Positions 1 to 5,682 of a stretch of 5,682 nucleotides of DNA are shown in pieces; positions within the stretch are counted from its first letter, which is position 1, and each line of letters begins with the position of its first letter. The position numbers and the translations under genes are program-made. Source of the DNA: a virus (taxonomy: Duplodnaviria; Heunggongvirae; Uroviricota; Caudoviricetes); IMG/VR virus record IMGVR_UViG_2778261299_000006, positions 1 to 5,682 of that record; one strand, given 5' to 3'. A model generated the notes under the pieces. It was given only the letters and a program-made list of their open reading frames with translations, searched no databases and had not been told where the DNA came from.

Positions 1-111
1 GAAGCCAGCCACGCCGACCTCGCCTGGGCGACCATGCACGCCCTGTTAAATGAGCCACTCACCGCCGGTATCAGCACTCCGCTGACATCCACCATTCTGG
101 AGTTTTACTGA
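1..111 (+). CDS. P: Terminase large (ATPase) subunit, gpP-like; 3' end only, 5' end lies outside the window
   Basis: Frame 1 is open from base 1 for 36 codons (...LAWATMHALLNEPLTAGISTPLTSTILEFY) to TGA at 109-111, which overlaps the ATG of the next gene by one base (TGATG). In P2 the late operon reads P then Q, so the gene directly upstream of the portal is expected to be the terminase. The assignment rests on synteny only; 36 residues are too few to recognise the family directly. Confidence 0.6.
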   Translation, partial: EASHADLAWATMHALLNEPLTAGISTPLTSTILEFY

Positions 112-1130
112 TGAGCAAGAAAAAAGGGAAAACACCGCAACCTGCGGCAAAAACAATGACCGCCAGCGCCCCGAAAATGGAGGCATTCACCTTTGGTGAG
201 CCGGTACCGGTACTCGACCGCCGTGACATTCTGGATTACGTCGAGTGCATCAGTAACGGCAGATGGTATGAGCCGCCGGTCAGCTTTACCGGTCTGGCAA
301 AAAGCCTGCGTGCTGCCGTGCATCACAGCTCACCGATTTACGTCAAACGCAATATTCTGGCCTCGACATTTATCCCGCATCCGTGGCTTTCCCAGCAGGA
401 TTTCAGCCGCTTTGTGCTGGATTTTCTGGTGTTCGGTAATGCGTTTCTGGAAAAGCGTTACAGCACCACCGGTAAAGTTATCAGGCTGGAAACCTCACCG
501 GCAAAATATACCCGCCGTGGTGTGGAAGAGGATGTTTACTGGTGGGTGCCGTCCTTCAACGAGCCGACAGCCTTCGCGCCCGGCTCCGTGTTTCACCTGC
601 TGGAGCCGGATATTAATCAGGAGCTGTACGGCCTGCCGGAATATCTCAGCGCCCTTAACTCTGCCTGGCTGAATGAGTCGGCCACGCTGTTCCGCCGCAA
701 GTATTACGAAAACGGCGCACATGCCGGATACATCATGTACGTCACCGATGCCGTGCAGGATCGCAACGATATCGAAATGCTTCGCGAAAACATGGTTAAG
801 TCGAAAGGCCGCAATAACTTTAAAAACCTGTTTCTCTACGCCCCGCAGGGAAAAGCCGACGGTATTAAAATTATCCCGCTCAGTGAAGTGGCGACGAAGG
901 ACGATTTTTTTAATATCAAAAAAGCCAGTGCGGAAGATCTAATGAGTGCACATCGAGTCCCCCCGCAAATGATTGGGATGATGCCTAATAATGCAGGAGG
1001 ATTTGGCGATGTAGTTAAAGCTGCTAAAGTTTTTGTCAGGAATGAGTTAGGGCACCTACAATCGCGAATGAAGGAATTGAACTCATGGATAGGTGAAACC
1101 GTTATAACATTTAACAATTACTCGTTATAA
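111..1130 (+). CDS. Q: Phage portal protein, P2 gpQ-like (339 aa)
   Basis: ATG at 111 is preceded by GGAG (99-102) at an 8-nt spacing. The 339-aa product (MSKKKGKTPQPAAKTMTASAPKMEAFTFGEPVPVLDRRDILDYVECISNGRWYEPPV...) matches my recollection of the P2 portal protein Q. GC is about 55% over the first part of the gene. Position is consistent with P2 synteny: P then Q, then cos. Confidence 0.9.
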   Translation: MSKKKGKTPQPAAKTMTASAPKMEAFTFGEPVPVLDRRDILDYVECISNGRWYEPPVSFTGLAKSLRAAVHHSSPIYVKRNILASTFIPHPWLSQQDFSRFVLDFLVFGNAFLEKRYSTTGKVIRLETSPAKYTRRGVEEDVYWWVPSFNEPTAFAPGSVFHLLEPDINQELYGLPEYLSALNSAWLNESATLFRRKYYENGAHAGYIMYVTDAVQDRNDIEMLRENMVKSKGRNNFKNLFLYAPQGKADGIKIIPLSEVATKDDFFNIKKASAEDLMSAHRVPPQMIGMMPNNAGGFGDVVKAAKVFVRNELGHLQSRMKELNSWIGETVITFNNYSL

Positions 1131-1136
1131 ACCCTG

Positions 1137-1160
1137 CAGGCTTTGGCTCGCCAAAGCCTG
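1137..1160. terminator. GC-rich inverted repeat between convergent genes; putative bidirectional terminator
   Basis: caggctttggc (1137-1147) and gccaaagcctg (1150-1160) are perfect reverse complements (about a 10-bp stem with a ctcg loop). It sits in the 35-bp gap between the stop of Q (1128-1130) and the stop of the minus-strand partner gene (1166-1168). There is no clean U-tract on the plus strand; on the minus strand it is followed by GGTTTATAA, which is only weakly T-rich. Confidence 0.45.
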
Positions 1161-1165
1161 TAAGA

Positions 1166-1783
1166 TCAAGCAGATAGGCAAAACGTTTCTGTTTGCCCCA
1201 AGTGTTCAAACACAGTAATCGATGTTACTTTTCCGGCGCTTATTTTATTAAGGAATTTCAATATTTGTTGAGGCTCCTCCATGACTGCTGTTTTCTTGAT
1301 TATAAATCCTTCAAGATTTTTCAAGCTGTATCGCTGACTTGAGTTCTCAAGAGCAGCAATCATTGCCGAACTGCGCATATCTCTATGTCCACTAGCCCTA
1401 CAAACGACAGCATAATTTAAATCAAGCTCTACAAAATTTTGCCTTGTCAACTCTGGAAGGTGTTTACATACAAAATGAAATAAAGTCGTAACACCTTCAT
1501 GTATTTTCAACCTTATATCATCCTTTTGTGAACGTCCTTCTTTAAATTCAATGAAGTACAATTTATCTTCATGTAAAAATAAAGCATCCGGTGATTTTTC
1601 TTTAAGCTCACGCCTATAAATAGGCGAGCAATTTAACACCGTATCATAGTTAAAGCCCTTCGAATCACAAATAATAAAATACCGTCCCCCGGCATCATTG
1701 TAACTTAATTCGGTTACATCAACCATTGAATCATGGTATACTTCACATAATTTTCTAAAGATAAGCTCCTCATTAGAAATCAT
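1166..1783 (-). CDS. 205-aa partner protein of the ATPase, unknown family; possible PD-(D/E)xK-type nuclease effector
   Basis: ATG at 1783-1781 is preceded by AGGAG at a 7-nt spacing (minus-strand context gaatcAGGAGtatttggATG). The start overlaps the upstream ATPase gene by 11 nt, implying translational coupling. GC is about 30%. Residues 66-82 read DALFLHEDKLYFIEFKE, i.e. a hydrophobic strand ending in D73 followed by E79-x-K81, a pattern compatible with a PD-(D/E)xK core. I see no CxxC pairs as in HNH and no ordered E...DxD TOPRIM motif. Confidence 0.75.
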   Translation of the reverse strand: MISNEELIFRKLCEVYHDSMVDVTELSYNDAGGRYFIICDSKGFNYDTVLNCSPIYRRELKEKSPDALFLHEDKLYFIEFKEGRSQKDDIRLKIHEGVTTLFHFVCKHLPELTRQNFVELDLNYAVVCRASGHRDMRSSAMIAALENSSQRYSLKNLEGFIIKKTAVMEEPQQILKFLNKISAGKVTSITVFEHLGQTETFCLSA

Positions 1784-3101
1784 CCAAATACTCCTGATTC
1801 AATTCTTTTAATGGTGTTGCCAAAAGATTAATTGCATATGCAACATTATCAGTAATATCAACAAAAGATGTAAATTCTTCCCCAGGGAATCGCTCGCTTA
1901 TATAGAACCGATTTTCAACCCCAATTTTGTCGCTAAAATGTTTAAGAGCATCAATAATATATGGGCTATGTGTTGTAATTATTATATCAACCCCCATAGA
2001 CACTAACTCACAAATAATCTCAGCATAGAAAACCTGCCACTTTGGATGTAAGTTCACCTCTGGTTCATCAATAATCAGCAACGAATTATCTACTGCTGCC
2101 CCACACTTAACAAGCATATCAAGAATACCTAAAGACTTTATTCCTGACGCAATATTACTCGATGTGACTTTATAGCCTTGCTTCTCTAGAAAAAAATCAT
2201 TCTTTTCAATATCATAAACCACCTCACCACTGAAAGCGGCATTGATTTTTTTAGATATACGAAGTGATTCATTTAAAAATGAGCCATCATCAAAAATATC
2301 CGAATGCACGAATAAATTATAAACTGAATCGCTTAGTTTTATTGATAGATCTTTCACATGCAATGGAACAGTTAGACGTCCTGATTCACCGTTACTATCA
2401 AATAAAGTTTTAGCAAAACGAACCAAATTATGAAATTGCATAATACTTGGAGAGTCAACATATGTTGCGTCGACATATCCTAAGCCATCAGTATAATCAA
2501 ATTGTGATATACCATCTTTAGTCCATTTAATATCAATTAACTGACTAACACCATCAACAACTTCCAGAGATGCTTTAACTGGATTTTGATTACCCTTCTG
2601 AATAATTTCCCCTCTAAATTCAGAGTAAAAGGCCTTACGCAGAGCGCGGTTGATAGCAGATAACTCATCATCTGGCTCAAGCATTATATCTCTGATTTTT
2701 CTTATATCAGAGAGTACAGAATCCGCCATCAACTCTGGAAGAAGACCTTCATCAATCAATTTATATAGATAACTCTCCCTCTCAGCCAAAGTTTTAGAGA
2801 TATCTATTTTTAGAGAGGCATAAAATTTTCTTGGATTGAATAACTCTCTAATTTCCGGCGTAGCAGCAATATTAATCCTCCTACGCAGATTAAAATATAT
2901 TTTCTCTACAATAGATGTAATTCTATCCTCTTTGTCTTCTTCTAAATCTTCTTGATAACGAGATATCGCCTTTACCATTGAAAACAGTATCTTCCCTACG
3001 GTACTCTTTCCCGTATCATTTTCACCAGTTATGACAGTTAATCCACCAACTGAAACATCAGCTTCCGCAATAGTTCCAAAATTATTAATTTTTATACGCA
3101 T
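1773..3101 (-). CDS. ABC-type / AAA_21-like (OLD or SMC-like) P-loop ATPase, 442 aa; first gene of a two-gene operon
   Basis: Walker A GENDTGKST (aa 26-34) is encoded at 3003-3026, verified by reverse-complement translation. A signature-like SSNIASGIKSLG lies at aa 314-325. Walker B LLIIDEPE (aa 341-348) is encoded at 2061-2081, also verified. An H-loop-like IIITTHSP lies at aa 373-380. About 300 residues separate Walker A and B, which is typical of ABC/SMC-like defence ATPases. ATG at 3101-3099. GC is about 30%, far below the flanking phage core. Confidence 0.85.
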   Translation of the reverse strand: MRIKINNFGTIAEADVSVGGLTVITGENDTGKSTVGKILFSMVKAISRYQEDLEEDKEDRITSIVEKIYFNLRRRINIAATPEIRELFNPRKFYASLKIDISKTLAERESYLYKLIDEGLLPELMADSVLSDIRKIRDIMLEPDDELSAINRALRKAFYSEFRGEIIQKGNQNPVKASLEVVDGVSQLIDIKWTKDGISQFDYTDGLGYVDATYVDSPSIMQFHNLVRFAKTLFDSNGESGRLTVPLHVKDLSIKLSDSVYNLFVHSDIFDDGSFLNESLRISKKINAAFSGEVVYDIEKNDFFLEKQGYKVTSSNIASGIKSLGILDMLVKCGAAVDNSLLIIDEPEVNLHPKWQVFYAEIICELVSMGVDIIITTHSPYIIDALKHFSDKIGVENRFYISERFPGEEFTSFVDITDNVAYAINLLATPLKELNQEYLDDF

Positions 3102-3132
3102 AAACTATCTCACTGTACGCCAGATATCCAAC

Positions 3133-3170
3133 CTTATGAATACTTTAGCATATTTCCACAAAGATGACAC
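3133..3170 (-). promoter_or_regulatory. Putative sigma70-type promoter region for the ATPase-partner operon
   Basis: On the minus strand, GTGTCA (plus coordinates 3165-3170), a 17-bp spacer, then TAAAGT (3142-3147). An alternative pairing is TTGTGG (3156-3161) with CATAAG (3133-3138). Both are only 4/6 or 3/6 matches to consensus. The region is AT-rich and lies 30-70 bp upstream of the ATG at 3101 and 25-60 bp from cos. This is a weak call. Confidence 0.25.
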
Positions 3171-3194
3171 TGGAGGCTGCAGGCCTCGCGCGCA

Positions 3195-3213
3195 GTGCTT
3201 TCCCCGCCTCGCC
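3195..3213. other. cos site: 19-nt cohesive-end sequence of P2-type phages (cosN), joined/intact form
   Basis: Plus strand 3195-3213 is gtgctttccccgcctcgcc, the exact reverse complement of GGCGAGGCGGGGAAAGCAC. I recall that sequence as the P2/P4 cohesive end, and it is at the expected place between the Q side and the A side of the genome. The orientation (GGCGAGG... reading on the minus strand toward Q) fits the P2 left end. Confidence 0.8.
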
Positions 3214-3335
3214 CGCCCGCTTCGCTGGTCACATTTAATGCAGTTGCATGAAGGCGTCAAAACCACACCGGTACTGGCAACAAGTGACCATAAAAACGGC
3301 TTTTGGCACATGCAAAACAATGCACCTAATGCACG

Positions 3336-3366
3336 CACACAAAAACGGGGAAAGTCGCTTTCCCCC
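3336..3366 (-). terminator. Rho-independent terminator downstream of the 174-aa gene
   Basis: Minus strand reads GGGGAAAG-cga-CTTTCCCC (plus coordinates 3347-3365, an 8-bp perfect GC-rich stem) followed immediately by GTTTTTGTGTG. It starts 11 nt after the TGA stop of the 174-aa gene (3379-3377). Confidence 0.7.
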
Positions 3367-3376
3367 ACAAACATTA

Positions 3377-3901
3377 TCAACGCACCGGAATGTAAGATTC
3401 AAGGTCTCTGATTACGGCTTGTTTCAGTGCTTCAGATACAGCCTCAAGTTCTGGCAATGCTGGCTTTTCACTTAAGTTCGTTTCAAATTCCCCGCTTCCT
3501 ATTACTAGCGTAAAGCCATTTCCATCACGTAGCAGTTTCAAAGGAATAATCACGTTTAACTTAGGATGAGCAACCGGTGACTTATCCACTGTAAGACCAA
3601 TAAAAAATGACAAAATCCCATCTGCATCAGGCAACAGATCGTGTAACTGAACTTTAGATTTTTCACCATCTTTAATTGCAGCGACAAAAACATAATTTTC
3701 AGTGGGGTTTTGCCCTGGATAGCCCCAGCAAGTTTGCTCAAGCTCAAGCGACCCCTCAAAGTTTTTCGCAATCAGCCCAACAATATTTTGTAAACGCTCT
3801 TTTTCCTCTCTCTGTAACCGAACGATTTCAATATACTTATCTCTTATAGTCTGAAAAGTAATCACTTTAGTCTCCTTAAACGGCTTACACAGAAACAGCA
3901 T
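3377..3901 (-). CDS. Hypothetical protein, 174 aa (162 aa if it starts at GTG 3865); orphan accessory gene at the tin/old-equivalent position
   Basis: ORF from ATG 3901-3899 to TGA 3379-3377. GGGGG lies 4 nt upstream of the ATG. An alternative start GTG at 3865-3863 is preceded by AAGGAG at a 5-nt spacing, a better-positioned SD. The gene has its own intrinsic terminator (3336-3366). GC is about 40-42%. I recognise no family motif by eye. Confidence 0.65.
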   Translation of the reverse strand: MLFLCKPFKETKVITFQTIRDKYIEIVRLQREEKERLQNIVGLIAKNFEGSLELEQTCWGYPGQNPTENYVFVAAIKDGEKSKVQLHDLLPDADGILSFFIGLTVDKSPVAHPKLNVIIPLKLLRDGNGFTLVIGSGEFETNLSEKPALPELEAVSEALKQAVIRDLESYIPVR

Positions 3902-3929
3902 TTAACCCCCTGATAATATTTCTTTCAAT
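3900..3929 (-). promoter_or_regulatory. Putative promoter for the 174-aa gene
   Basis: On the minus strand, TTGAAA (plus coordinates 3924-3929), an 18-bp spacer, then TTAAAT (3900-3905). The -10 overlaps the ATG at 3901, so this promoter would favour the GTG 3865 start with its AAGGAG SD. An alternative -10, TATTAT (3913-3918), has a poor -35. Low confidence. Confidence 0.25.
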
Positions 3930-4213
3930 AATTTTCCTAACGCCTCGCTACGCTCGTTGTTCAACCCCGTCAGCCCTGAAAACAAGTTTCACGACTGGCG
4001 GCGTTCTCTATCGTCTGCGTGGTGGTGACGTAACTCTTGATTGACCGATATGGTTAAACCGCCCGTCATTATCCCGGACTATTTCGGCACACCCGACCAG
4101 CTCATCGGGCGTCAGATTTTCGTTGACCATAATCCGCTGTAAACGCTGAACAATAGCCATCAGCTTGATATTTTTAGTTTTATGGTGCGGTATCTCGCCT
4201 GGTATTCTGTGCA

Positions 4214-4666
4214 TTATCCAAGCCACCCGTTTTGCTGTGCACGCTCCATCTGTTCATCTGAATAGTTCCATGCTCCATCCGTGGCAACCATTGCCCCGCC
4301 AGACATCCCTGTCTCTGGTTCATACATAACAGCAAGGCCGAGCTGATGCATAATTTCATGATTAATTCTGAATACCAGACCACGCTCACTAAGTTCTTTC
4401 CAGTTCACAATCTCATATGCGCATGTATTAAGCAGATCAATACTTAGCAAGACATAATCTTCCAGCCAGTCTGACAGGTCAGTAACATCTGTTATCCGGG
4501 CTTCAACCTTTCGCCCCGTGTACACACCCTGCACCCATTCATGCAAAATCAACGTGTCCCCGCGCTCATAATTACGGTCATTTTTCCGAAACTCTGCGCG
4601 TTTCTTTCCTTCCAGCACAAGGTCGAAATATTTTGCGTGCAGCTTTACCTCGTGAATTTTTGCCAT
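4214..4666 (-). CDS. ASCH / DUF3850-like domain protein (orf91-position gene) with a C-terminal extension carrying HEIMH; 150 aa
   Basis: True start is taken as ATG 4666-4664 (MAKIHEVKLHAKYFDLVLEGKKRAEFRKNDRNYERGDTLILHEW...), not the upstream GTG at 4702 reported in the ORF track. GGAG lies 8 nt upstream. The ATG overlaps the TAA stop of gene A by one base (TAATG). The N-terminal ~75 aa resemble the ASCH-like DUF3850 pattern as I recall it. The C-terminal half contains INHEIMHQLGL...YEPE. The position immediately downstream of A matches P2 orf91. Confidence 0.75.
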   Translation of the reverse strand: MAKIHEVKLHAKYFDLVLEGKKRAEFRKNDRNYERGDTLILHEWVQGVYTGRKVEARITDVTDLSDWLEDYVLLSIDLLNTCAYEIVNWKELSERGLVFRINHEIMHQLGLAVMYEPETGMSGGAMVATDGAWNYSDEQMERAQQNGWLG

Positions 4667-5682
4667 TATGTCCACTCCATTACTGTTGAGAATCCCGGCC
4701 ACTCATCAGCGACCGGATACGTGAATTTTTTCCCGTCATAATTTACGGTCGCGCCACGCGCCAGCGCCTCAAGCTCCCATCGCTGCGGCCTGATACCGTT
4801 CTGAGCAAGGTCAACGCGGATACGGGTAATTTGCATTCTTTCCGACCGGGTCAGTCTGACCGATGGTGCAATTTCATGTGGTTTTAACGGGCTTCCGTTT
4901 CTTTGCTGACGGTTTGGCGTTCTCAGGTCGTGTTTTAATGCGCCCCTGAGCGCCCTCACGACCTCCGGTTCATTCCATTCAATAACACCGCCATCAACCA
5001 GATTAAGCACTGCTGCGGCGTGCTCAGAAGGTGTGGGAACCAGTAACGAAGTATCACCACCGGAGAGCTTTCCACAGTTATTGACAGGACTCCGAGGCGC
5101 GGCGATGCCGCTTTTTAAAGTCAAAGGCTCAACGACCGGCACTTTCGGCACAATGCGCCAGTCCGTGGTTCTGGTGATATGAATATGACGCGCGCCGAGA
5201 TGCGGCGCGTAAATGCCGACCACTCTCTCGACTTCTTCCTCGTACTCGTTAACGTCATCCGACGGGCTACGGGCGACCCTGACAGTCTGACAATCGCGCG
5301 GGACATTTGCCCCGCCCTGCGCGCTGATATACAACGCAAAATCACCACTGTCTGCGGCGGCGCGTGCAGCCTCGACGCGTTCGTCAAACTCATCAGCAAT
5401 GCTGACGCCGCGAGGCAATTTGCGTAGTTCACGGTAAGCACCCATTGTCGGCAGGCCAACCGTTTTAAATTGCGGAATGCGCCACGTTGACGCCCATGCG
5501 GTAACAGCCGCGGCAGTATCTTTCAGCGGTCTGCCGGTATCGTTATCGAGCTGCCCATCCAGTGCATAGCCGTCGATATTTTTTGAGATGTATTTCGCGA
5601 TATACCCCGCAGCACCGCCCCGGTTAAGGTGTTTTGCCTGAAAACGGTTTCGCGCGGCTCCTCTTTCGTCACCATCCTCTTT
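4666..5682 (-). CDS. A: Rolling-circle replication initiator, P2 gpA-like; C-terminal 338 codons, 5' end outside the window
   Basis: I translated the minus-strand frame by hand from 5682 down to TAA at 4668-4666 and found no stop, so the gene enters from beyond the window edge. It contains GYIAKYISKNIDGY (Tyr codons at 5604-5602 and 5592-5590), the Y-x-x-K-Y two-tyrosine motif of phiX174/P2-type RCR initiators. The second Tyr is 308 residues from the C-terminus, which fits the P2 A active-site position as I remember it. GC is about 55%. Confidence 0.9.
   Translation of the reverse strand, partial: KEDGDERGAARNRFQAKHLNRGGAAGYIAKYISKNIDGYALDGQLDNDTGRPLKDTAAAVTAWASTWRIPQFKTVGLPTMGAYRELRKLPRGVSIADEFDERVEAARAAADSGDFALYISAQGGANVPRDCQTVRVARSPSDDVNEYEEEVERVVGIYAPHLGARHIHITRTTDWRIVPKVPVVEPLTLKSGIAAPRSPVNNCGKLSGGDTSLLVPTPSEHAAAVLNLVDGGVIEWNEPEVVRALRGALKHDLRTPNRQQRNGSPLKPHEIAPSVRLTRSERMQITRIRVDLAQNGIRPQRWELEALARGATVNYDGKKFTYPVADEWPGFSTVMEWT

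What the first reader, a model, noticed from the sequence alone, without database searches (positions are those of the whole stretch)
3102..3376. Intact cos junction with the cargo operon promoter only about 25-60 bp from the cohesive-end site
Seen in sequence: the 19-nt reverse complement of GGCGAGGCGGGGAAAGCAC is at 3195-3213. The ATPase start is at 3101 and the best promoter candidates are at 3133-3170. From established knowledge, cos is cut by terminase during packaging and re-joined after injection, and terminase-binding determinants flank cosN. By inference, the cargo operon sits at the extreme left end of the virion DNA, with its promoter abutting the packaging site. Its transcription is therefore only possible from circular or prophage DNA and could be influenced by terminase binding. 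The window also shows that both sides of cos carry accessory genes.
Basis: partly seen in the sequence, partly recalled or inferred. Interest (0 to 1): 0.45.

Follow-up and report, generated by a model that had tools for sequence, protein, structure and literature searches.

The report
P2 phage cos junction with cargo
This is the ordinary joined packaging (cos) site of a P2-like prophage, lying in the already described cos-adjacent hotspot for accessory genes, and the neighbouring ATPase-nuclease cassette brings its own promoter, so its closeness to cos is an effect of tight packing and not a regulatory device.

Summary
The P2 19-mer is exact at 3195-3213 (- strand), inside the 55-bp P2/P4 cos core (3188-3242, 49/55 identical to P2). 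The ATPase gene starts at 3101. The best promoter candidate is GTGTCA(3170-3165)-17-TGcTAAAGT(3150-3142).

- The extended -10 element travels with the two-gene cassette. It recurs upstream of homologous cassettes in other P2-like phages, where cos lies 93, 102, 118 or about 500 bp from the ATG. It also recurs next to integrases of non-P2 prophages that have no cos nearby. Proximity to cos is therefore not a conserved feature.
- The promoter and operon lie on the same side of the cut, so linear DNA keeps them intact. The claim "only from circular or prophage DNA" does not follow.
- All conserved cos determinants outside the 19-mer lie on the other side (3214-3336, including three TGCAT repeats shared with P2 and P4). 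Conservation stops 7 bp from cosN on the promoter side.

The locus is the known gpA-cos-gpQ hotspot. This exact gene pair is listed in Rousset 2022 Table S5. P2's own old-tin promoter sits about 150 bp from cosR.

The cassette is an ABC-type ATPase plus a probable PD-(D/E)xK nuclease, an untested defence candidate. Interest is low.

The parts
3195..3213 (-). cosN: the 19-nt P2/P4 cohesive-end sequence GGCGAGGCGGGGAAAGCAC
   Evidence: Exact single match, 0 of 200 shuffles. Identical to P2 cosL/cosR as annotated in NC_001895.
3188..3242 (-). 55-bp cos core: 29 bp of right-end arm, the 19-mer, and TGCGCGC
   Evidence: 49/55 identical to P2. Corresponds to the 55-bp core of Ziermann & Calendar 1990 as cited in PMC3931495 and PMC5694545. 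The six differences fall in the variable sub-block 3224-3233, and this variant is a singleton among the sampled junctions.
3243..3250 (-). Proximal CATGCAAC element next to the core (TGCAA at -35 from cosN)
   Evidence: Majority base at least 90% conserved over 118 unique junctions. Present in P4 at the same distance.
3310..3333 (-). Three distal TGCAT repeats (3333-3329, 3324-3320, 3314-3310); candidate terminase-recognition elements on the right-end side
   Evidence: They lie at -120, -111 and -101 from cosN in the window, -123, -111 and -101 in P2, and -124, -111 and -101 in P4, which shares only cos with P2. They form conserved islands in otherwise variable DNA. Their function is inferred.
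3165..3170 (-). Candidate -35 hexamer GTGTCA of the cargo promoter
   Evidence: Part of the best-scoring promoter in the position-weight scan. Not conserved among cassette homologues and outside the DNA homology with the integrase-adjacent copy, which starts at 3153.
3142..3150 (-). Extended -10 element TGcTAAAGT of the cargo promoter; predicted transcript start near 3135 (inferred)
   Evidence: TGCTA.A.T is present 40-49 nt before the ATG in 6 of 10 cassette lineages, although the flanks are otherwise unalignable. Chance per sequence is 0.004-0.012.
3108..3111 (-). Weak Shine-Dalgarno GAGA, 6 nt before the ATG at 3101
   Evidence: Read directly from the sequence.
1773..3101 (-). Cargo gene 1: 442-aa ABC/OLD-type ATPase (AAA_15/AAA_21) with no Toprim domain
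   Evidence: Pfam AAA_21 5e-19 and AAA_15 3e-18. PADLOC HEC-02A 1e-33, PD-T4-4_A 6e-31 and NsnB 2.5e-24. phrog_14430 1.6e-201.
1166..1783 (-). Cargo gene 2: 205-aa probable PD-(D/E)xK nuclease, overlapping gene 1 by 11 nt
1135..1162 (.). 12-bp hairpin between the convergent portal gene and cargo gene 2; a likely two-way terminator that replaces P2 tQ
   Evidence: -19.7 and -21.4 kcal/mol, z -5.0 and -4.2, 0 of 200 shuffles fold as well.
111..1130 (+). Portal gene Q; a mosaic with its last 66 codons (932-1130) replaced
   Evidence: Pfam Phage_portal. 91% aa identity to P2 gpQ. DNA is 97.6% identical over 1-931 and has no similarity after that.
3347..3365 (-). Intrinsic terminator closing the right-slot gene, 14 bp before the first distal cos repeat
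   Evidence: 8-bp stem followed by a T run. -12.4 kcal/mol, z -2.3.
3377..3901 (-). Right-slot cargo gene of unknown function; the true start is probably GTG 3865, giving 162 aa
   Evidence: phrog_5091 1.7e-13, matching from residue 13. SD AAGGAG at 3878-3873. PGAP aa in the sister record NZ_CP159691.1. The region 3188-3944 is shared by only a few E. coli genomes.

Best explanation
The region is the joined cos site of a P2-like (Peduovirus) prophage, lying in the known gpA-cos-gpQ accessory-gene hotspot.

cos is asymmetric. It consists of the 19-nt cleavage site, only 7 conserved bp on the Q (left-end) side, and about 125 bp of conserved patches on the gpA (right-end) side: the core arm, CATGCAAC, and three TGCAT repeats.

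A mobile two-gene cassette fills the cosL-Q slot from cos+7. It encodes an ABC-type ATPase and a probable PD-(D/E)xK nuclease, a candidate anti-phage system. It was probably swapped in by recombination between the cos core and the portal gene, since it arrived with a foreign 3' end of Q.

The cassette is transcribed away from cos from its own extended -10 sigma-70 promoter (TGcTAAAGT, 3150-3142). The promoter is close to cos because variable DNA can begin right at cos+7. There is no functional coupling.

Shown: the identity and limits of cos, the mosaic boundaries, cassette mobility, and conservation of the -10 motif. Inferred: promoter activity and transcript start, terminase binding to the TGCAT repeats, and a defence function.
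For: cos identity and limits
- Exact 19-mer and the 55-bp core, 49/55 identical to P2.
- Phage records end at this site.
- The flanking genes are terminase and portal on one side and DUF3850/Orf91-like and gpA on the other.
- Homology to P2 and to 70 or more other junctions stops at TGCGCGC. About 47 of 118 junctions diverge exactly there.
- On the other side there are conserved islands at 3243-3250 and 3310-3333, shared with P2 and P4 at the same distances.

Mosaic structure
- Seven E. coli genomes share 900-3249 and others share 3188-3944.
- BUCT2930 matches 1-3249 and then diverges.
- Homology with P2 in the portal gene ends at 931.

Cassette mobility
- The same ATPase plus 205-aa pair occurs in Cronobacter, Pectobacterium, Enterobacter and Yersinia P2-likes. 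It also occurs next to integrases of non-P2 prophages and in Pseudomonas and Vibrio chromosomes.
- DNA homology with the integrase-adjacent copy spans 3153-1182, which includes the -10 but not the -35 or cos.

Promoter
- TGCTA.A.T lies 40-49 nt before the ATG in 6 of 10 lineages, with near-random flanks.
- It is the best position-weight score in the intergenic region.
- The same scan picks the mapped P2 old promoter as its top hit.
- The distance from cos to the ATG varies: 93, 102, 118 and about 500 bp.
- The terminator at 3365-3347 blocks upstream read-through.

Literature
- The hotspot is described in PMC9122126 and PMC9519451.
- This exact pair, WP_001220547 + WP_000624949, is listed in Table S5 of PMC9122126.
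Against: - No transcript data exist. The promoter is a moderate match (8/12 plus TG) and the tool's stricter scan did not list it.
- The -10 motif is absent or displaced in 4 of 10 lineages.
- Two weaker promoter-like sites lie on the far side of cos (3315-3287 and 3260-3233) and could in principle read across it.
- The window's cos right arm carries a sub-block variant (3224-3233) seen in no other sampled junction, so packaging competence is not proven.
- The IMG/VR sample was selected for the exact 19-mer plus TGCGCGC and is dominated by close E. coli relatives, so its conservation scores partly reflect relatedness.
Confidence: 0.8

Rival explanations
1. The promoter is functionally coupled to cos, so that terminase binding or cos cleavage and rejoining controls cargo expression, and transcription needs circular or prophage DNA.
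For: The -35 edge is only 25 bp from the nick and 18 bp from the conserved core. A large terminase complex at cos could sterically cover it. In P2 itself the -35 of the old promoter overlaps the first distal TGCAT repeat.
Against: The promoter and operon are on the same side of the cut. No conserved cos determinant lies on the promoter side beyond 7 bp. The cassette keeps the same -10 at 93 to about 500 bp from cos and at sites with no cos at all. The sequence between cos+7 and the -10 differs completely between the window and the Cronobacter phage.
Confidence: 0.05
2. The operon is transcribed mainly from promoter-like sites on the right-end side of cos (TTGCAT 3315-3310/TATGGT 3292-3287, or TTGACG 3260-3255/TTAAAT 3238-3233). 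The transcript then crosses cos and exists only when the ends are joined.
For: Position-weight scores of 9.0 and 8.7 on the correct strand, downstream of the terminator at 3347.
Against: Both score lower than the 3170-3142 candidate. Their hexamers overlap cos elements that are conserved for other reasons, or lie in variable DNA. BUCT2930 carries the same cassette but entirely different DNA beyond 3249. Integrase-adjacent copies have no such upstream region yet keep the -10.
Confidence: 0.08
3. The cos site is a relic in a defective prophage. It is intact in the 19-mer but no longer competent for packaging, so its adjacency to the promoter has no packaging context.
For: The right-arm sub-block 3224-3233 differs at 6 positions from P2 and is unique among the sampled junctions. 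The only near-identical public copy is a 3.8-kb assembly fragment.
Against: The sub-block is the most variable part of the core in other phages too. The 19-mer, both invariant flanks and all TGCAT/TGCAA elements are present at the canonical distances. The neighbouring portal, terminase and gpA reading frames are open.
Confidence: 0.1

Closest known systems
Phage P2 cos region with the old-tin operon (NC_001895)
   Same: The same 19-mer and 55-bp core, and the same TGCAT repeats. An accessory exclusion operon is transcribed away from cos from a promoter close to it: the transcript starts at 33424/33426, about 150 bp from cosR, and the -35 overlaps the first distal repeat.
   Different: In P2 the cargo is on the right-end (gpA) side and the cosL-Q slot is empty (cos to Q stop about 165 bp). 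Here the main cargo fills the cosL-Q slot, and the promoter is 25-53 bp from the nick on the side that lacks cos accessory elements.
P2/P4 cos-proximal defence hotspot (Rousset et al. 2022, PMC9122126; Vassallo et al. 2022, PMC9519451)
   Same: The locus lies between gpA and gpQ next to cos. Gene content is highly variable in otherwise near-identical phages. This exact pair, WP_001220547 + WP_000624949, is listed in Table S5.
   Different: Those papers treat gpA-gpQ as one hotspot and do not resolve the two slots on either side of cos or the promoter geometry. This pair occurs in only one of the paper's supplementary files held as text, the Table S5 listing; I did not check whether the paper tested it.
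cosL-Q insertion site of other P2-like phages (phiRSY1, 186, phiCTX; PMC5694545, citing Dodd & Egan 1996 and Nakayama 1999); retron-carrying pro147
   Same: Foreign genes sit between cosL and the portal gene and are usually transcribed away from cos. In the IMG/VR sample, 6 of the 7 left-slot cargoes (those other than the window's own) are oriented this way, with start codons 93-433 bp from cos.
   Different: The cargo content differs. The window and its sister L026 have the shortest cos-to-ATG distance seen (93 bp).
Lambda cos (cosQ-cosN-cosB, about 200 bp; PMC4669245 abstract)
   Same: A cleavage site plus asymmetric accessory recognition repeats on one side only.
   Different: No sequence relationship. 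From general knowledge, lambda's late transcript runs across cos, whereas here cos is bracketed by a terminator on one side and an outward-facing promoter on the other.
ATPase-plus-nuclease defence pairs (PADLOC HEC-02, PD-T4-4, PDC-M29; Septu PtuAB; PARIS AriAB)
   Same: An AAA_15/AAA_21 ABC-type ATPase followed by a small nuclease-like partner in an overlapping two-gene operon on mobile elements.
   Different: The partner matches no PADLOC or Pfam model. The only signals are weak PDC-M29B hits in 11 of 35 homologues (best E 0.0019) and one HEC-02B hit at E 0.011. It has no HNH, Toprim or DUF4435 domain.

Membership tests
P2/P4-type cos site | 19-nt cohesive-end sequence GGCGAGGCGGGGAAAGCAC | tested here: met
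   Exact match at 3195-3213 (-), 0 of 200 shuffles.
P2/P4-type cos site | 55-bp conserved core around the cohesive ends (Ziermann & Calendar 1990, as cited in PMC3931495 and PMC5694545) | tested here: met
   3188-3242 is 49/55 identical to P2. All six differences are in the variable sub-block.
P2/P4-type cos site | Position between the replication gene A side and the portal gene Q in the circular map | tested here: met
   The order is gpP end, gpQ, cargo, cos, cargo, DUF3850/Orf91-like, gpA C-terminus.
P2/P4-type cos site | Cleavage by gpM/gpP terminase to give 5' 19-nt overhangs; virion DNA ends at this site | not testable with these tools
   Needs sequencing of virion DNA ends or a packaging assay.
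P2 cos-proximal accessory/defence hotspot | Variable gene content between conserved gpA and gpQ backbones in related phages | tested here: met
   Backbone is 95-98% identical while 932-3187 and about 3340-3937 are replaced in other phages. The pair is listed in Rousset Table S5.
P2 cos-proximal accessory/defence hotspot | The cargo confers phage resistance | not testable with these tools
   The only indications are domain content and neighbourhood (R-M genes beside other copies).
Extended -10 sigma-70 promoter | TGnTAnnnT motif at a suitable distance upstream of the gene | tested here: met
   TGCTAAAGT at 3150-3142, 41 nt before the ATG. The motif is conserved in 6 of 10 cassette lineages.
Extended -10 sigma-70 promoter | A mapped transcript start and dependence on the -10 | not testable with these tools
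   No transcript data are available.
PADLOC HEC-02 / PD-T4-4 two-gene systems | Both subunits match the system's models | tested here: not met
   The ATPase matches the A models, mainly over its C-terminal third (best stretch 273-396, 1e-33 and 6e-31). The partner has no hit, and only 1 of 35 homologues hits HEC-02B at E 0.011.
OLD-family nuclease (P2 Old, GajA) | ABC ATPase fused to a C-terminal Toprim nuclease domain | tested here: not met
   Only the ATPase part matches (Old model residues 337-385, 1.5e-14). No Toprim hit in Pfam. The protein is 442 aa, against 586 aa for P2 Old.
PD-(D/E)xK nuclease superfamily (205-aa partner) | Catalytic D...(D/E)xK motif on a restriction-endonuclease-like alpha/beta core | tested here: inconclusive
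   [not shown]

The most novel reading that the evidence does not exclude
The most novel reading left open has two parts.

1. The ATPase plus PD-(D/E)xK cassette is a previously uncharacterised anti-phage system. It moves between the cosL-Q slot of P2-like phages and the integrase-adjacent slots of other prophages as a unit that begins exactly at its extended -10.

2. Placement of its promoter within about 25 bp of the cos nick lets a terminase complex assembled at cos, either the phage's own during induction or one belonging to a superinfecting P2/P4, shut the defence off or modulate it.

The first part is plausible. The second has no positive evidence.
Probability: 0.04. Interest if true: 0.55.

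Novelty: already known. Interest (0 to 1): 0.15.

Why it matters
It matters little as a discovery. The window is a textbook example of the P2 cos-adjacent hotspot and adds no new principle.

Three practical points do come out of it:
- Variable DNA can start 7 bp from cosN on the Q side, while about 125 bp are constrained on the gpA side. That is useful when designing P2/P4 cosmids or editing the hotspot.
- The cassette boundary falls at its own extended -10. Cloning from 3153 downwards, or from 3187 to be safe, should capture a self-expressing unit for defence assays.
- The ATPase plus PD-(D/E)xK pair is widespread in Enterobacterales, Pseudomonas and Vibrio, and I found no record that it has been tested.

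Tried and rejected
Searches that found nothing
- A scan of GTDB species representatives with the ATPase gave no confirmed relative. I used protein-cluster look-ups instead.
- Rfam on the whole window at E<=1 gave no hit.
- Folding the predicted 5' UTR (3140-3095) gave no structure beyond shuffles, z -0.4.
- PADLOC, Pfam and NCBIfam gave nothing for the 205-aa partner or the right-slot gene.
- A PDB sequence-profile search with the partner alignment gave nothing significant, best E 0.047.

Features considered and dismissed
- The small palindrome GAGGCCTGCAGCCTC (3187-3173) between cos and the -35 is not kept in the 97%-identical BUCT2930 copy.
- The 9-nt GGGGAAAGC shared by the terminator and cosN, and the direct repeat GCCTCGCGCGC/GCCTCGCCCGC, are treated as chance or as part of cos itself.
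- The tool's stricter promoter scan listed no site in 3102-3346 on the - strand. I therefore relied on a position-weight scan, checked against the mapped P2 old promoter as a positive control, and on comparative evidence.

Literature
- The text of Ziermann & Calendar 1990 is not held. The minimal functional cos is known to me only through secondary citations of the 55-bp core.

Full report
**1. Observation**

The P2 cohesive-end 19-mer GGCGAGGCGGGGAAAGCAC occurs once, exactly, at 3195-3213 on the - strand. None of 200 dinucleotide-preserving shuffles gave a match, even with two mismatches allowed.

The window is a P2-like (Peduovirus) genome read in reverse of the P2 map.
- 1-110 is the end of the large terminase gene P.
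- 111-1130 (+) is the portal gene Q.
- 3101-1773 and 1783-1166 (-) are two low-GC genes.
- cos follows, and then on the - strand a 174/162-aa ORF, a 72-aa ORF, a DUF3850/ASCH Orf91-like gene and the C-terminal part of replication gene A.

The ATPase ORF starts with ATG at 3101 and has a typical AAA_15/AAA_23 N-terminus.

A position-weight scan of the - strand puts the best sigma-70 candidate at GTGTCA (3170-3165), 17 bp, TG (3150-3149), TAAAGT (3147-3142). It scores 10.4, eighth of 56,540 scored positions in the window. The stated facts are therefore correct.

**2. What cos looks like here**

Aligned to the joined ends of P2 NC_001895, the window matches over exactly 55 bp (3188-3242, 49/55). 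That stretch is 29 bp of right-end arm, the 19-mer and TGCGCGC. Homology stops on both sides. This is the "55-bp core" attributed to Ziermann & Calendar 1990 in PMC3931495 and PMC5694545.

Records of isolated phages end precisely at this site, and fiAA91-ss annotates it as cosR.

I fetched 11 junctions from phage and genome records and 120 more from IMG/VR using the 19-mer plus TGCGCGC.

On the Q side the sequence diverges immediately after TGCGCGC. About 70 junctions carry the P2 backbone (TGGCGGTGGTGC...) and about 47 carry something else.

On the gpA side, conserved islands stand out from variable DNA:
- CATGCAAC at 3243-3250.
- Three TGCAT repeats at 3333-3329, 3324-3320 and 3314-3310.

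These repeats lie at -120, -111 and -101 from cosN in the window, -123, -111 and -101 in P2, and -124, -111 and -101 in P4. P4 shares nothing with P2 except cos.

cos is therefore asymmetric: about 125 constrained bp on the right-end side and 7 bp on the left-end side. I infer that the repeats are terminase recognition elements. That is not shown.

One caveat applies. The window's version of the variable sub-block 3224-3233 occurs in no other sampled junction except its near-identical sister record. Packaging competence is therefore likely but unproven.

**3. The mosaic**

Seven complete E. coli genomes share 900-3249 at 96.6%. Other genomes share 3188-3944. BUCT2930 matches 1-3249 at 97% and is then unrelated until gpA.

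DNA identity to P2 in the portal gene is 97.6% up to 931 and nil afterwards. Protein identity of the last 66 residues falls to roughly half.

Two cargo slots therefore flank a constant cos:
- The left slot, 932-3187, includes a foreign 3' end of Q.
- The right slot runs from about 3340 to 3937.

Of 94 IMG/VR junctions with a recognisable portal, about 85 have an empty left slot (cos to Q stop about 165 bp, as in P2). Eight, counting the window, have cargo there. Six of the seven other than the window are transcribed away from cos, with start codons 93-433 bp from it. The window's own module, at 93 bp, is the closest.

**4. The cargo and its promoter**

Gene 1 is an ABC/OLD-type ATPase without a Toprim domain.

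Gene 2 (205 aa) has no family assignment.
- Across 35 homologues, D66, E79 and K81 are invariant in a PD...ExK arrangement.
- The AlphaFold2 model has pLDDT 85.
- There are weak hits to PADLOC PDC-M29B in 11 of 35 members.

The pair always travels together:
- in the cosL-Q slot of Cronobacter, Pectobacterium, Enterobacter and Yersinia P2-likes;
- next to integrases of non-P2 prophages, beside EcoRII or type I R-M genes;
- in Pseudomonas and Vibrio chromosomes.

DNA homology between the window and an integrase-adjacent copy runs from 3153 to 1182. It starts just upstream of the TG of the extended -10 and ends just past the stop codon.

Upstream of the ATG, 6 of 10 lineages carry TGCTA.A.T at -40 to -49. 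The 30 nt on either side are about as similar as random sequence. The chance of the motif per 130-nt region is 0.004-0.012.

As a positive control, the same scan picks the mapped P2 old-tin promoter as the top hit in its region. That promoter is TTGAAT-17-TAAAAA, 6-8 nt upstream of the annotated starts 33424/33426.

I conclude that the cassette carries its own extended -10 promoter. The -35 is context-supplied and probably unimportant.

A strong hairpin (1135-1162) separates the operon from the convergent portal gene. An intrinsic terminator (3365-3347) stops the right-slot gene 14 bp before the first cos repeat.

**5. Testing the interpretation**

*a. "Only from circular or prophage DNA."* The cut leaves the -35, the -10 and the operon on one fragment, with 24 bp of duplex plus the overhang upstream of the -35. 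The inference does not follow from the geometry.

*b. [quoted passage not shown]* The conserved determinants are all on the other side of cosN.

*c. Coupling in general.* The distance from cos to the ATG for this same cassette is 93 bp (window), 102 bp (Cronobacter), 118 bp (Enterobacter) and about 500 bp (Yersinia). The intervening DNA is unrelated between phages. The cassette keeps its -10 where there is no cos at all. Proximity is not a conserved trait.

Steric effects of a terminase complex cannot be excluded without experiments. I give that reading about 5%.

**6. Comparison with what is known**

- The gpA-cos-gpQ region is the published P2 defence hotspot, studied because it adjoins cos (PMC9122126; also PMC9519451 and PMC13586616).
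- The cosL-Q position has been called an insertion hotspot since work on 186 and phiCTX (PMC5694545, citing Dodd & Egan 1996 and Nakayama 1999).
- P2's own old-tin operon starts about 150 bp from cosR. By my scan its -35 overlaps the first distal TGCAT repeat.
- The very pair found here, WP_001220547 + WP_000624949, is listed in Rousset et al. Table S5 as "AAA_15/AAA_21 + hypothetical".
- The cassette is not a member of HEC-02, PD-T4-4 or the OLD family. The partner or the Toprim test fails.

**7. Verdict**

The arrangement is an already known kind of locus.

The residual interest lies in the untested ATPase plus PD-(D/E)xK cassette and in the clean delimitation of the asymmetric cos.

Interest is 0.15.

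Noticed in passing
window 932-1130: The last 66 codons of the portal gene have no DNA similarity to P2, although 1-931 is 97.6% identical. GC drops to about 42% and protein identity to roughly half. The swapped unit therefore seems to run from inside Q to cos+7, which suggests cassette exchange by recombination between Q and the cos core of a more distant peduovirus.
   Followed up: partly
[not shown]
   Followed up: partly
window 3310-3333; P2 33452-33478; P4 right end: Three TGCAT repeats lie at the same distances from cosN (about -101, -111 and -120 to -124) in the window, P2 and P4. They are outside the classical 55-bp core. In P2 the -35 of the mapped old-tin promoter overlaps the first repeat.
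   Followed up: partly
window 3224-3233: This sub-block of the cos right arm (ATGTGACCAGC, against the usual AACCGCCCCATG) is unique among 118 sampled junctions apart from the sister record. It is unclear whether it affects packaging.
   Followed up: partly
window 3865-3901: The right-slot ORF listed from ATG 3901 more likely starts at GTG 3865, behind a strong AAGGAG (3878-3873). The PHROG match begins at residue 13, and PGAP aa in NZ_CP159691.1. Its function is unknown (phrog_5091).
   Followed up: partly
window 1135-1162: A perfect 12-bp hairpin (about -20 kcal/mol, z -4 to -5) lies between the stop codons of the convergent portal gene and the nuclease gene. It takes the place of P2's tQ terminator.
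   Followed up: yes
L143 (NZ_CP159691.1, 1-3847): A 3,847-bp linear record labelled 'plasmid unnamed3' in a complete E. coli assembly is 99.8% identical to window 929-3950. It runs from DUF3850 to a truncated portal gene, so it is an assembly fragment of this hotspot and not a plasmid.
   Followed up: yes
L004/L005 3501-5430; L009/L010 3501-5430: The same cassette sits immediately downstream of tyrosine integrases at the ends of non-P2 prophages, beside EcoRII-type or type I restriction-modification genes. This is a second kind of cargo slot for the same module.
   Followed up: partly
window 4666-5682 (-): The 259-aa ORF in the mechanical list is only the C-terminal part of replication gene A (phrog_91, nicking at origin). 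The gene runs off the end of the window.
   Followed up: yes
window 3346-3365 vs 3197-3206: The terminator stem shares 9 nt (GGGGAAAGC) with the cos 19-mer. A match of this length is roughly what chance would give in a region of this size.
   Followed up: no
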